Position numbers and translations under genes: made by a program | Assembly (NCBI GenBank): GCA_039794365.1 | Contig: JBDIVN010000001.1 | Coordinates: forward strand, 450,753 to 514,752 | Direction: 5' to 3' | From: Vampirovibrionales bacterium | Lineage (GTDB): Bacteria > Cyanobacteriota > Vampirovibrionia > Vampirovibrionales > Vampirovibrionaceae | DNA: 64,000 bases | Notes under the pieces: model-generated | Told to the model about the DNA's origin: nothing | Database searches by the model: none | The model's input: the letters and a program-made list of their open reading frames with translations, nothing else | Shown here: piece by piece, positions 18,089 to 19,290 of the stretch | Position numbering within the stretch: position 1 is the first letter of the stretch | How the letters are laid out: each line of letters starts with the position of its first letter

Positions 18089-18949
18089 CTAGAAGACCCA
18101 GAGGCCTCCAGCCCGGCAGTCACCCTGGTACTGGGTACGGCGCGTCCGGGTACGGATCTGGAAGTACCGCTTGAACTTCTCGCCCTGCGGCGTGGTGATC
18201 ACCGGCCCGGGCACCCAGACGGTTCTCACCTGAACGTCGGGCTGGGTGTTGGGCACCGGGACGGGATTGCCGTTCCGGCGCTTGAGGACGCACTGGCAGT
18301 GATCCTTGCAGGTATCCGCCTGGTAGAAGAACCCCCGGTTCGGCTCGGCGTCTGAGGGTTTGTTGAGATCGAAATAGGCCTGGGCATCGGCGCGTTCCTG
18401 GGGATTCATGCCCGGATTGTCCGGAATTCGCCGCCGCCGGGAGTAGATGCTGCCCGTTGTTCCGTAGGCGTAAGGGACCTCAACGACACCGCGGAACTGG
18501 TACATATACGTGCCGTCCGCCTCTTTCTGCAACTGGTGGAACTCCACCCGGCAGGGGCACTCACAGTTCTTGTCGATGGCGTCGAGGTCGCCGTAAAGCT
18601 CATCCAGAATGGACCCGCCCGGCTTGGGTCCTTCATAGGCGTCCCCCTTGTGGCAGTCGGTTTCCGTTCCGGAGCCGCCGCCGTTGCCGTCGTCGATGGG
18701 TTCGCCGTCGTCACCATTGCCATCGCCGTTGCCGTTCTCATCCCCATCCTCATCATTTGCGGGTTGGGGATTGGGCTGGGGCGGCGGACAGTCCTCATCG
18801 TCCTGGCGGCAGATGAAACCGCTGTCCTGCTGTTGCTGTTCCTGGGCCTGTTCCTGGCCGTCCACCGCCTCGGACGTCAGCACGGCAGCCTGAAGCCCTG
18901 CGCCCAAGGCGAACGTCATCGCCAGGGCGAGTAACCACTGCTTAGTCAT
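18089..18949 (-). CDS. Secreted Cys-rich, acidic hypothetical protein
   Basis: Signal peptide MTKQWLLALAMTFALGAGLQA, 10 Cys, D/G/N-rich linker. GGAG lies before ATG 18949. Confidence 0.75.
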   Translation of the reverse strand: MTKQWLLALAMTFALGAGLQAAVLTSEAVDGQEQAQEQQQQDSGFICRQDDEDCPPPQPNPQPANDEDGDENGNGDGNGDDGEPIDDGNGGGSGTETDCHKGDAYEGPKPGGSILDELYGDLDAIDKNCECPCRVEFHQLQKEADGTYMYQFRGVVEVPYAYGTTGSIYSRRRRIPDNPGMNPQERADAQAYFDLNKPSDAEPNRGFFYQADTCKDHCQCVLKRRNGNPVPVPNTQPDVQVRTVWVPGPVITTPQGEKFKRYFQIRTRTRRTQYQGDCRAGGLWVF

Positions 18950-19048
18950 AAACTCCAAACTCTCCTGTCAAAAAATAATCACGGGTGGTTTTTAAACGAG
19001 TAAGTTATCTATCTGTATACCGTTAAAACGGCCTGAAAAAAATAGGTT

Positions 19049-19077
19049 TTGACAAAATGTATCTATTCCTCTAGATT
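19049..19077 (+). promoter_or_regulatory. sigma70-type promoter of the arg leader
   Basis: TTGACA (19049-54), 17-nt spacer, TAGATT (19072-77). Confidence 0.8.
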
Positions 19078-19087
19078 TGTAGGTCCT

Positions 19088-19180
19088 ATGAAAAACTTTG
19101 AATTCACGCCGAATACCATTGTCCGCCGTCGCCGCCGCAGCCTGACGGCCGGGTGGACATTGGCGCGAAATTCACGATAA
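19088..19180 (+). CDS. Arg-rich attenuator leader peptide MKNFEFTPNTIVRRRRRSLTAGWTLARNSR
   Basis: 30-aa ORF with codons 13-17 = CGC CGT CGC CGC CGC, lying directly upstream of a terminator and argB. Confidence 0.85.
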   Translation: MKNFEFTPNTIVRRRRRSLTAGWTLARNSR

Positions 19181-19217
19181 ACCGCAAACCAGAGCCTTAC
19201 AATCACCCTGAGCCGTC
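19116..19217 (+). promoter_or_regulatory. Attenuator alternative helices (1:2 protector, 2:3 antiterminator)
   Basis: CCATTGTCCGCC (19116-27) pairs with GGTGGACATTGG (19152-63). GACGGC/GGGTG/ATTG (19144-62) pair with GCCGTC/CACCC/CAAT (19200-17). Confidence 0.8.
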
Positions 19218-19244
19218 GAATCCGAGCCGGGGTGATTTTTTATT
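19201..19244 (+). terminator. Intrinsic terminator (attenuator 3:4 hairpin)
   Basis: AATCACCC...GGGTGATT stem followed by a T-tract (TTTTTTATT), ending about 46 nt before the argB ATG. Confidence 0.85.
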
Positions 19245-19290
19245 GACCGGATTTTATACAGATACGCCCAAGCCGAAAGGGAACCCCACC

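What the first reader, a model, noticed from the sequence alone, without database searches (positions are those of the whole stretch)
19049..19290. Classical leader-peptide attenuator with five tandem Arg codons controlling argB-argG
Seen in sequence: promoter TTGACA-N17-TAGATT; a 30-aa ORF (19088-19180) MKNFEFTPNTIV-RRRRR-SLTAGWTLARNSR; helix 1:2 (19116-27 with 19152-63, 11 of 12 pairs, overlapping the first Arg codons); helix 2:3 (19144-62 with 19200-17); terminator 3:4 (19201-37) plus T-tract; then the argB RBS. The hexamer GCCGTC occurs both inside the Arg codons (19125-30) and in the terminator 5' arm (19212-17), and both can pair with GACGGC (19144-49). Established: this is the trpL/hisL/thrL/leuL architecture. 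Bacterial arg biosynthesis is normally controlled by ArgR/AhrC repressors or T-boxes; the Arg-sensing AAP uORF is fungal and SpeFL senses ornithine. I am not aware of a described poly-Arg transcription attenuator for bacterial arg genes. Inference: stalling on Arg codons when Arg-tRNA is scarce frees segment 2, which blocks the terminator and allows read-through.
Basis: partly seen in the sequence, partly recalled or inferred. Interest (0 to 1): 0.92.

Follow-up and report, generated by a model that had tools for sequence, protein, structure and literature searches.

The report
Arginine-sensing leader-peptide attenuator of arg genes
A short upstream reading frame with five arginine codons, followed by a switchable terminator, most likely lets this bacterium and its relatives turn on arginine-synthesis genes when charged arginine tRNA runs low, a textbook control mechanism that I could not find described for arginine.

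Summary
These are the promoter (19049-19077), a 30-codon uORF (19088-19180) with five tandem Arg codons, a long 1:2 helix, a 2:3 antiterminator, and a terminator hairpin with a T-tract (19201-19241). argB-argG-argH lie downstream.

It is not chance. It is the only intergenic uORF with four or more Arg codons plus a terminator that my scan found in the 3.49-Mb genome.

Homologous leaders precede arginine genes in relatives. I found 20 leaders in 16 genomes of two families of the class, upstream of argB, argJ-argB, argC, argF or argG. One genome has three.

The segment just after the Arg run is complementary to the terminator's 5' arm. It changes together with that arm: cognate pairs average -15.5 kcal/mol against -11.9 for non-cognate pairs, and 0 of 5000 permutations reach the observed mean.

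Of the 108 Arg codons in the runs, 105 are CGU, CGC or CGA.

No ArgR was found in the genome, or in 48 other genomes of its order.

Rfam has no match, and seven literature searches found no arginine leader-peptide attenuator.

Verdict: a real ribosome-mediated attenuator, and a new variant of a known kind. No expression data exist. Equilibrium folding shows only a partial switch in this copy.

The parts
19049..19077 (+). Sigma-70-type promoter, TTGACA-17 nt-TAGATT. The -10 box ends only 10 nt before the uORF ATG.
   Evidence: 10 of 12 matches, and the only site in 18800-19500. A TTGACA-type -35 box sits at the same place upstream of the homologous leaders.
19088..19180 (+). Leader peptide gene (uORF): 30 codons plus TAA.
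   Evidence: All 23 canonical homologous leaders have an in-frame start codon before the run. In the table it lies 4-27 codons upstream, and for G022 an earlier ATG gives 11.
19124..19138 (+). Five tandem Arg codons (CGC CGT CGC CGC CGC), the proposed sensor.
   Evidence: All five would be read by tRNA-Arg(ACG), which has two genes in this genome.
19099..19137 (+). Segment 1, the 5' strand of helix 1:2. It contains the Arg codons.
   Evidence: -32.4 kcal/mol; duplex -36.3 kcal/mol, z = -3.67.
19143..19174 (+). Segment 2. It pairs either with segment 1, or through 19143-19156 with segment 3 (the antiterminator).
   Evidence: It starts 4 nt after the Arg run.
19201..19218 (+). Segment 3, the 5' arm of the terminator. 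It is also the 3' strand of the antiterminator (19203-19218).
19223..19241 (+). Segment 4, the 3' arm of the terminator (19223-19237, of which 19236-19237 are the first two T), with the run of six T at 19236-19241.
   Evidence: Hairpin energy is -16.6 to -19.2 kcal/mol.
19291..20262 (+). argB, acetylglutamate kinase, the first structural gene.
   Evidence: TIGR00761, 256.8 bits against a cut-off of 151.3.
20262..21506 (+). argG, argininosuccinate synthase. Its ATG overlaps the argB stop codon.
   Evidence: NF001770, 585 bits.
21733..23043 (+). argH, argininosuccinate lyase.
   Evidence: TIGR00838, 608.6 bits.

Best explanation
This is a ribosome-mediated (leader-peptide) transcription attenuator specific for arginine.

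Proposed mechanism (inferred from sequence and comparison):
- Transcription starts at the promoter at 19049-19077, and a ribosome translates the 30-codon leader.
- When charged tRNA-Arg(ACG) is plentiful, the ribosome runs through the five CGY codons to the stop at 19178-19180. Segment 2 is then covered, or re-pairs with segment 1 behind the ribosome. The terminator (19201-19237 with its U-tract) forms, and most transcripts end near 19241.
- When charged tRNA-Arg is scarce, the ribosome stalls on the first Arg codons and covers segment 1. Segment 2 begins 4 nt after the run and stays free. It pairs with the 5' arm of the terminator as soon as that arm is made. The terminator cannot form, and RNA polymerase reads on into argB-argG-argH.

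Status of the steps:
- Shown here: the sequence elements, their mutually exclusive pairings, their conservation and co-variation, and their association with arginine genes.
- Inferred: translation of the leader, stalling, and arginine-dependent read-through.

The element belongs to a regulon-like set. Homologous leaders sit in front of argC, argJ-argB, argF and argG in relatives. The lineage is probably Melainabacteria/Vampirovibrionia, but that is only a lead.
For: 1. Anatomy in the window:.

2. Uniqueness in the genome.
- Among 2070 terminator-like sites, seven have an upstream uORF with four or more consecutive Arg codons.
- The other six lie inside long ORFs of 120 aa or more. Only the argB one is intergenic.
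- The covariance models find exactly one copy in this genome.

3. Conservation in the family (f1).
- All 6 genomes that have a true argB carry a uORF with an Arg run plus a terminator. These are G000, G010, G021, G022, G015 and G004.
- The run is RRRRR, RRRRSRR, RRRRVRR or RPRRRPR.
- The leader sits upstream of argB or of argJ-argB, each with its own TTGACA promoter.

4. Conservation in a second family (f5).
- Model searches found 14 more leaders in 10 genomes, upstream of argF (7), argJ (4), argC (2) and argG (1).
- Gene identities were confirmed with NCBIfam.
- G109 has three leaders, before argC, argJ and argF.
- Of the 9 full-length non-training hits of model R2 at E <= 0.001, 7 lie directly upstream of an arg gene.

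5. Antiterminator.
- In the 14 leaders tested, segment 2 starts 1-13 nt after the Arg run and pairs with the terminator's 5' arm.
- It beats 500 dinucleotide shuffles at a fraction of 0.05 or less in 11 of 14.
- Across 20 leaders, cognate segment 2/arm pairs average -15.5 kcal/mol and non-cognate pairs -11.9. None of 5000 permutations reaches the observed mean.

6. Reading frame and codons.
- All 23 leaders have an in-frame start.
- 105 of 108 Arg codons in the runs are CGT, CGC or CGA, counted by hand from the lists.
- In 1082 long ORFs of this genome, CGG alone makes up 33% of Arg codons.
- The third codon position varies while CG is invariant. That is a coding signature, not a signature of structure alone.

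7. No ArgR.
- PF01316 and PF02863 have no match in this genome, which is 96% complete.
- PF02863 is found in 0 of 24 f1, 0 of 19 f3 and 0 of 5 f2 genomes.

8. The upstream gene is divergent (18089-18958, minus strand). The terminator therefore cannot belong to it.
Against: 1. No expression data. No RNA run was listed for this sequence.

2. Equilibrium folding does not give a clean switch.
- With a footprint of -15..+14 nt, the antiterminator is the minimum-energy fold only for the A site on Arg codons 2 and 3. The terminator stays for codons 1, 4 and 5.
- With a footprint of -15..+12 nt, the probability of the terminator falls only for codon 15, to 0.34-0.60.
- G010 and G004 switch clearly. 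G021, G022 and G015 do not switch at all at equilibrium.
- The classical model is kinetic, so this weakens the case but does not refute it.

3. The -10 box ends 10 nt before the ATG. The uORF would therefore have a 5' UTR of only about 2-5 nt and no usable Shine-Dalgarno sequence. Translation would have to be leaderless or nearly so. Homologous leaders have longer 5' UTRs.

4. The 1:2 pairing is significant against shuffles in G000 and G015 (fractions 0.003 and 0.013). It is not significant in G010, G021, G022 or G004 (fractions 0.08-0.31).

5. Arg runs are common in off-frame reads of this 58% G+C genome. There are 1978 short stop-to-stop segments with four or more Arg, so the run alone proves nothing.

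6. One genome that has ArgR (G225) also has a leader. The leader is therefore not simply a replacement for ArgR.

7. This genome and G010 lack argC and argJ. What argB does here is unclear.

8. Misses.
- G037 (family f3) has argB with no Arg uORF in the 369 nt available before the contig ends.
- A second, divergent argB copy in G021 has none.
- No convincing leader was seen in 14 loci of families f6-f9.
Confidence: 0.82

Rival explanations
1. The leader is a protein- or ligand-controlled attenuator: a riboswitch, or a TRAP/PyrR-like RNA-binding protein that recognises the CGN repeats. On this reading the open reading frame across the repeats is incidental.
For: - The terminator and its competing pairing would serve any attenuation mechanism.
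- The Shine-Dalgarno sequence is weak or absent in the window copy.
- The equilibrium switch under ribosome masks is only partial.
Against: - No Rfam family matches, including T-box and the riboswitches, even at E <= 10.
- Outside the Arg codons and the terminator, sequence is poorly conserved: mean column identity is 48%. There is no aptamer-like conserved core.
- The repeats keep CG and vary the third base, which is a period-3 coding pattern. They are always in frame with a start codon and a later stop.
Confidence: 0.07
2. The nascent Arg-rich peptide is an arrest peptide that senses free arginine or a related metabolite in the ribosome tunnel, as fungal AAP or SpeFL do. It would not be a sensor of tRNA charging.
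For: - The peptides share some residues besides Arg. Examples are N before the run and EF or S after it within families.
- Arrest peptides that sense arginine or ornithine exist (recalled for AAP and SpeFL; abstract of PMC6386406 read for the Salmonella speF leader).
Against: - Stalling at high arginine would free segment 2 and raise expression of biosynthetic genes when the product is abundant. That is the wrong sign.
- Peptide sequence outside the Arg run differs greatly between families.
- Peptide length after the run varies from 3 to 16 residues.
Confidence: 0.04
3. The Arg run and the hairpins are chance or non-regulatory features, such as a constitutive partial terminator or leftover sequence in a G+C-rich intergenic region.
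For: - Arg runs are frequent in this genome's non-coding frames.
- The simple terminator scan found nothing in the region.
Against: - Twenty homologous leaders lie upstream of five different arg genes in 16 genomes.
- The antiterminator co-varies with the terminator arm: 0 of 5000 permutations reach the observed mean.
- The leader folds with z = -3.33.
- It is the only intergenic case in the genome.
Confidence: 0.03

Closest known systems
Enterobacterial hisL, pheL, leuL, thrL and ilvL leader-peptide attenuators (named from my own knowledge of the field)
   Same: - Own promoter and a short ORF with a run of codons for the pathway's end product.
- Segments 1 to 4 with mutually exclusive 1:2/3:4 and 2:3 pairings.
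- An intrinsic terminator before the first biosynthetic gene.
- As in hisL, there is a run of five to seven identical codons, and the uORF stop lies downstream of segment 2.
   Different: - The amino acid sensed is arginine.
- There is no sequence or model similarity to any Rfam leader family.
- The lineage is different, probably Melainabacteria (a lead).
- The element is multiplied across several arg operons, up to three per genome.
- The window copy may be translated almost without a 5' UTR.
trpL of E. coli, the classical four-segment model (recalled)
   Same: The logic is the same: a stall on the control codons in segment 1 frees segment 2, which blocks the terminator.
   Different: - trpL has two control codons, and its stop codon lies between segments 1 and 2.
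- Here there are five codons, and the stop lies 38 nt after the start of segment 2.
Salmonella orf34 (speFL) leader of speF
   Same: A bacterial uORF in which ribosome pausing at consecutive Arg codons under low arginine selects an alternative mRNA structure (abstract of PMC6386406).
   Different: - Only two Arg codons.
- It controls ornithine decarboxylase, not arginine synthesis.
- The output is RNase G sensitivity, Rho termination and RBS access, not an intrinsic terminator.
Fungal arginine attenuator peptide (AAP) of arg-2/CPA1 (recalled)
   Same: A uORF upstream of an arginine-pathway gene.
   Different: - Eukaryotic.
- It senses free arginine through the nascent peptide, has no Arg-codon run, and acts on translation.
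ArgR/AhrC repression and Arg T-boxes
   Same: The regulated pathway is the same. PMC1262725 (passage read) lists arginine as regulated at RNA level by T-boxes.
   Different: - ArgR was not found in this genome or its order.
- No T-box match.
- A T-box reads uncharged tRNA directly, without translation.
Other recently described amino-acid uORF attenuators: the cysS uORFC-8-2 motif with two Cys codons
   Same: A uORF with tandem codons of the cognate amino acid, stems and a terminating U run. It was proposed from comparative genomics alone (PMC8632094, passages read).
   Different: - It senses a different amino acid.
- It regulates a tRNA synthetase gene.
- It is found in Rhodobacterales.

Membership tests
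Ribosome-mediated (leader-peptide) transcription attenuators, as a mechanistic class | A short ORF with a start codon in the 5' leader of a biosynthetic operon. | tested here: met
   uORF at 19088-19180. An in-frame start is present in all 23 homologous leaders.
Ribosome-mediated (leader-peptide) transcription attenuators, as a mechanistic class | A ribosome-binding site that allows efficient translation of the leader. | tested here: inconclusive
   The -10 box ends 10 nt before the ATG. The only AGG (19081-19083) would lie at or before the start of the transcript. Translation would be leaderless or nearly so.
Ribosome-mediated (leader-peptide) transcription attenuators, as a mechanistic class | A cluster of codons for the amino acid made by the regulated pathway. 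| tested here: met
   Five tandem Arg codons lie upstream of argB-argG-argH. Homologues have 3-7 Arg codons upstream of argC, argJ, argF or argG.
Ribosome-mediated (leader-peptide) transcription attenuators, as a mechanistic class | An intrinsic terminator (G+C-rich hairpin plus U-tract) between the uORF and the first gene. | tested here: met
   19201-19237 with six T, -16.6 to -19.2 kcal/mol. Present in all 14 leaders.
Ribosome-mediated (leader-peptide) transcription attenuators, as a mechanistic class | An antiterminator that shares a strand with the terminator and is free only when the ribosome stalls on the control codons. | tested here: met
   19143-19156 pairs with 19203-19218 at -25.6 kcal/mol. 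The pairing is significant in 11 of 14 leaders. Cognate pairs beat non-cognate pairs in 5000 of 5000 permutations.
Ribosome-mediated (leader-peptide) transcription attenuators, as a mechanistic class | Segment 1, holding the control codons, pairs with segment 2. | tested here: met
   For the window: -32.4 to -36.3 kcal/mol, z = -3.67. RNAalifold recovers this helix on the six f1 leaders. It is not significant against shuffles in 4 of the 6.
Ribosome-mediated (leader-peptide) transcription attenuators, as a mechanistic class | Read-through that depends on translation of the leader and on supply of the charged tRNA. | not testable with these tools
   No RNA run was listed. This needs reporter, Term-seq or in vitro assays.
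Rfam leader families (Trp_leader, His_leader, Leu_leader, Thr_leader and the like) | A match to the family covariance model. | tested here: not met
   cmscan of 18900-19400 against 4227 families at E <= 10 gave six matches. All were unrelated families far below their gathering scores.
T-box leaders | A match to the T-box model (specifier loop, T-box sequence). | tested here: not met
   No T-box match.
ArgR/AhrC-ARG box repression | An ArgR protein encoded in the genome. | tested here: not met
   PF01316 and PF02863 have no match in the 96%-complete genome. The same searches ring in 8-9 of 14 control genomes.

The most novel reading that the evidence does not exclude
A whole bacterial class (probably the non-photosynthetic cyanobacterial relatives, Melainabacteria/Vampirovibrionia) runs its arginine regulon on a poly-Arg leader-peptide attenuator that reads charging of one tRNA, tRNA-Arg(ACG), largely in place of ArgR.

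In members that have lost arginine synthesis, the same sensor has been moved in front of a conserved membrane protein of about 500 aa with no known family. That protein would then be an arginine-starvation-induced uptake, scavenging or prey-attack factor.
Probability: 0.3. Interest if true: 0.78.

Novelty: new variant of a known kind. Interest (0 to 1): 0.62.

Why it matters
- Leader-peptide attenuation is the textbook example of RNA-level sensing of amino-acid supply. To my knowledge arginine is usually cited as a pathway controlled by a repressor (ArgR/AhrC) or by T-boxes, not by attenuation.
- This element would fill that gap. It shows the four-segment design arising again for another amino acid in a little-studied lineage with few cultured members.
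- It gives a ready-made, compact arginine-responsive switch.
- It provides a covariance model that marks arginine-regulated genes in these genomes. These include a conserved gene of unknown function in arginine auxotrophs.
- It also offers a natural test of which tRNA-Arg isoacceptor limits translation during arginine starvation.

Tried and rejected
- Rfam at a permissive threshold found nothing relevant.
- Simple terminator scan: 0 sites. The hairpin has bulges that the scan does not allow.
- The search for related loci in genome contigs with ArgB returned only distant named relatives, 49% identity to Planktothrix and an Obscuribacterales MAG.
- The protein-atlas search with ArgG gave no taxonomic lead.
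- RNA evidence: no RNA holder was listed for 18900-20300.
- Search for other classical attenuators in this genome (uORFs with three or more identical residues plus a terminator):
  - No convincing His, Trp, Leu or Thr leader turned up.
  - One candidate, MKPTSKPTTTT, precedes what looks by eye like a membrane protein and was dropped.
- The region upstream of argF in this genome has no Arg leader.
- Family f3:
  - uORFs ending in RRRR-stop lie upstream of argJ in G038 and G034.
  - They have no stable fold (z = +0.8 and +1.1) and no canonical terminator, and neither model detects them.
  - I do not count them as attenuators.
- Phylum sample with model R2 (151 genomes):
  - I inspected 19 of the 25 hits outside this genome.
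  - None was an Arg leader. They were terminators or G+C-rich coding sequence, one of which looks by eye like the start of a ribosomal protein gene.
  - The six hits I did not inspect were short matches to the terminator part only.
- I looked for a strict ArgR-or-leader complementarity and rejected it. G225 has both.
- The roughly 500-aa protein downstream of Arg leaders in G007, G016 and G025 has no Pfam family, no homologue in this genome, and only one marginal PDB sequence hit at E = 0.007. Its function was not pursued further.
- Supplementary files of papers were not consulted.
- The literature library lacks most subscription journals. An older report of an arginine attenuator there would have been missed.
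Full report
**The observation**

- A promoter-like site, TTGACA-17-TAGATT, lies at 19049-19077. It is the only one in 18800-19500, against 0.3 expected.
- An ATG at 19088 opens a 30-codon frame, MKNFEFTPNTIVRRRRRSLTAGWTLARNSR, ending in TAA at 19178-19180.
- Codons 13-17 are CGC CGT CGC CGC CGC, at 19124-19138.
- The free leader folds into a long helix, 19099-19137 with 19143-19174 (-32.4 kcal/mol), and a hairpin at 19201-19237 followed by six T.
- The whole fold has z = -3.33, and 0 of 200 shuffles fold as well.
- When only 19139-19220 is folded, 19143-19156 pairs with 19203-19218 at -25.6 kcal/mol. This mimics a ribosome on the Arg codons with the 3' arm of the terminator not yet made.
- Downstream lie argB (19291-20262), argG (20262-21506) and argH (21733-23043). 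The operon is therefore argB-argG-argH.

**Is it chance?**

Arg runs alone mean little in this 58% G+C genome. There are 1978 short stop-to-stop segments with four or more consecutive Arg.
- I scanned the genome for terminator-like hairpins (2070 sites) and for upstream uORFs with residue runs.
- Seven uORFs have four or more Arg. Six of them lie inside long ORFs, and only the argB one is intergenic.
- The 2:3 and 1:2 duplexes in the window are stronger than dinucleotide shuffles: z = -3.6 to -3.7, fractions 0.002-0.003.

**Relatives in the same order**

ArgB was sought in 41 relatives and in 301 genomes of the class. In the family (f1), 5 of 24 other genomes have a true argB.
- G010 is the closest, with 62% ArgB identity. 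Upstream of its argB is VSRPFHVASFRRRRRIFGEGKA and a terminator, in a different nucleotide sequence.
- In G021, G022, G015 and G004, argB follows argJ. The leader sits between argC and argJ, with its own TTGACA promoter. The peptides are:
  - G021: MLISFFENTQIRRRRSRRTFG...
  - G022: MFISFSSMSQNRRRRVRRSTG...
  - G015: MIVVFNSNTQSRRRRSRRNPAG...
  - G004: MISVSITNRQPRPRRRPRTVRG...
- The six leaders align at 55% mean identity. RNAalifold recovers the helix between the Arg codons and segment 2, and the terminator.
- Misses:
  - G037 has no Arg uORF in the 369 nt available upstream of its argB.
  - A second, divergent argB copy in G021 has none.
  - The two f3 genomes, G038 and G034, have uORFs ending in RRRR-stop upstream of argJ. 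These show no stable structure and no canonical terminator, so I do not count them.

**A wider regulon**

I built a covariance model from the six leaders (R1) and searched with it in 49 genomes of the order and 151 of the class.
- It found five full-length hits in a second family, f5. All five have an Arg-run uORF, a terminator and a TTGACA promoter. Four lie upstream of argF and one upstream of argC.
- A second model built from 14 leaders (R2) found more:
  - G109 has three leaders, before argC, argJ and argF.
  - G118 has two, before argF and argC.
  - G112 has one before argG.
  - G132, G128 and G225 have one before argJ.
  - G149 has one before argF.
- In all there are 20 leaders in 16 genomes. 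Their targets are argB (2), argJ (8), argF (7), argC (2) and argG (1).
- Of the 9 full-length non-training R2 hits at E <= 0.001, 7 are directly upstream of an arg gene. One has no uORF. One precedes a small repeat-containing ORF.
- R2 hits by family at E <= 0.001:
  - f1: 5 of 14
  - f2: 1 of 1
  - f5: 11 of 30
  - f6: 1 of 30, a match to the terminator part only
  - f3: 0 of 17
  - f7: 0 of 32
  - f8: 0 of 9
  - f9: 0 of 12
- In a phylum sample of 151 genomes, I inspected 19 of the 25 hits outside this genome, and none was an Arg leader.

**The switch**

- In the 14 leaders tested, a segment starting 1-13 nt after the Arg run is complementary to the 5' arm of that leader's own terminator. 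It beats 500 shuffles at a fraction of 0.05 or less in 11 of 14.
- The pairing sequences differ between leaders and change together. Over 20 leaders, cognate pairs average -15.5 kcal/mol and non-cognate pairs -11.9. None of 5000 permutations reaches the observed mean. In that run the automatic window missed segment 2 in three leaders, which counts against the result.
- Equilibrium folding with a masked ribosome is less clear.
It does not for codons 1, 4 and 5.
  - With a shorter footprint, the terminator probability drops only at codon 15, to 0.34-0.60.
  - G010 and G004 switch strongly: 0.00-0.03 against 0.82-0.93.
  - G021, G022 and G015 do not switch.
  - Attenuation is decided during transcription, so these equilibrium figures are a caveat, not a test.

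**Codons and tRNA**

- Of 108 Arg codons in the runs of the 23 leaders, 105 are CGT, CGC or CGA. Two are CGG and one is AGA. This is my count of the lists.
- In 1082 long ORFs of this genome, CGG is 33% of Arg codons and AGR is 11%.
- The genome has two tRNA-Arg(ACG) genes and one each of CCG, TCT and CCT.
- By established decoding rules, the sensor would read the charging of tRNA-Arg(ACG), which after modification to inosine reads CGU, CGC and CGA.
- CG is invariant while the third base varies. That fits selection on codons.

**Other regulators**

- ArgR domains were not found in this 96%-complete genome.
- They were not found in 0 of 24 f1, 0 of 19 f3 and 0 of 5 f2 genomes. They occur in 19 of 96 f5 genomes.
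- One ArgR-bearing genome, G225, also has a leader before argJ. The two systems can therefore coexist.

**Comparison with known systems**

- The design is that of the enterobacterial leader-peptide attenuators. It is closest to hisL in having a long run of one codon.
- It is not a member of any Rfam leader family, nor a T-box.
- The nearest bacterial precedent for sensing arginine through Arg codons in a uORF is Salmonella orf34 upstream of speF. That uORF has two codons and acts on mRNA decay and Rho termination (abstract of PMC6386406).
- PMC1262725 states that arginine genes are regulated at RNA level by T-boxes (passage).
- PMC8632094 describes a comparable uORF motif with Cys codons for cysS (passages).
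- PMC2965389 and PMC4833913 do not mention arginine at all (term searches).
- Seven full-text searches found no arginine leader-peptide attenuator. The library lacks most subscription journals, and supplements were closed.

**Lineage**

- The unknown protein of G007 resembles Atlas clusters whose commonest taxon is Candidatus Melainabacteria.
- The nearest named ArgB sequences are cyanobacterial or from an Obscuribacterales MAG, at 49% identity.

**Open points**

- The -10 box ends 10 nt before the ATG. The window's uORF may therefore be translated from a nearly leaderless mRNA.
- This genome and G010 lack argC and argJ but keep argB.
- No expression data could be found.

**Verdict**

This is a real, conserved, arginine-specific leader-peptide attenuator (confidence 0.82). 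It is a new variant of a known kind, of moderate to high interest.

Noticed in passing
L079 (G007:C2:318564-318742, minus), L085 (G016:C2:164138-164300, plus), L081 (G025:C37:101165-101322, minus); downstream genes in L088, L089, L090: Three relatives have no argB but carry the same kind of Arg-run leader plus terminator. The uORFs are MISFNATSQNNRRRPRRFRV..., ...LRDKRRRRRTGHEG... and MSQLFAQQQQRRRRSRQPQVDPR. Each precedes a single-gene unit encoding a conserved protein of 502-563 aa. The three proteins are 30-38% identical and have a few hydrophobic segments. They have no Pfam family, no homologue in this genome, and no clear PDB relative. This may be an arginine-starvation-induced function in auxotrophs.
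   Followed up: partly
L081 (G025), about 60-160 nt downstream of the first terminator: A second uORF with an Arg run (MNLNLVTTSLRQAQQQQRRRRPGLCRGWRSLS) follows the first leader before the same gene. This may be a tandem attenuator.
   Followed up: no
Whole genome G000, and G010: Both genomes lack argC and argJ. The only weak hits are an aspartate-semialdehyde dehydrogenase and a sugar-type oxidoreductase. Both genomes nevertheless keep argB behind the Arg leader. G000 also has argF, argG and argH. The source of ornithine and the role of argB are unexplained.
   Followed up: partly
Its uORF is MEFFTIFAIVMIMCPIILRE(S/C)GP(I/M)RCEE(T/I), followed by a strong terminator. It lies upstream of another ORF of 484-491 aa; the one tested (G017) has no Pfam family. 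The uORF is rich in Ile, Met and Phe, so it may be an attenuator for another signal.
   Followed up: no
L052:2370-2436 (G038) and L054 (G034), family f3: uORFs ending in four Arg codons immediately before the stop (CGA CGA CGA) lie upstream of argJ. A conserved TTTGTACTACAATAGG box follows them, and there is no canonical terminator. This could be a different arginine-sensing design or a protein operator.
   Followed up: partly
L087 (G023:C37:206909-207092) and L144 (G012:C28:184948-185133): An Arg/His-rich uORF (MFSIQVN.YNH.RRHRQ.LSRR...) with a hairpin lies upstream of a roughly 123-aa ORF made of repeats (LGSYRHDVAYTAALKS). Its nature is unknown.
   Followed up: no
window 18089-18958, minus strand: The divergent 289-aa ORF next to the leader matches no NCBIfam family.
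   Followed up: no
Class-wide: Many genomes of the class have no argB with this query: f1 5 of 24, f3 3 of 19, f2 0 of 5 and f7 1 of 99 have one. This suggests widespread arginine auxotrophy.
   Followed up: no
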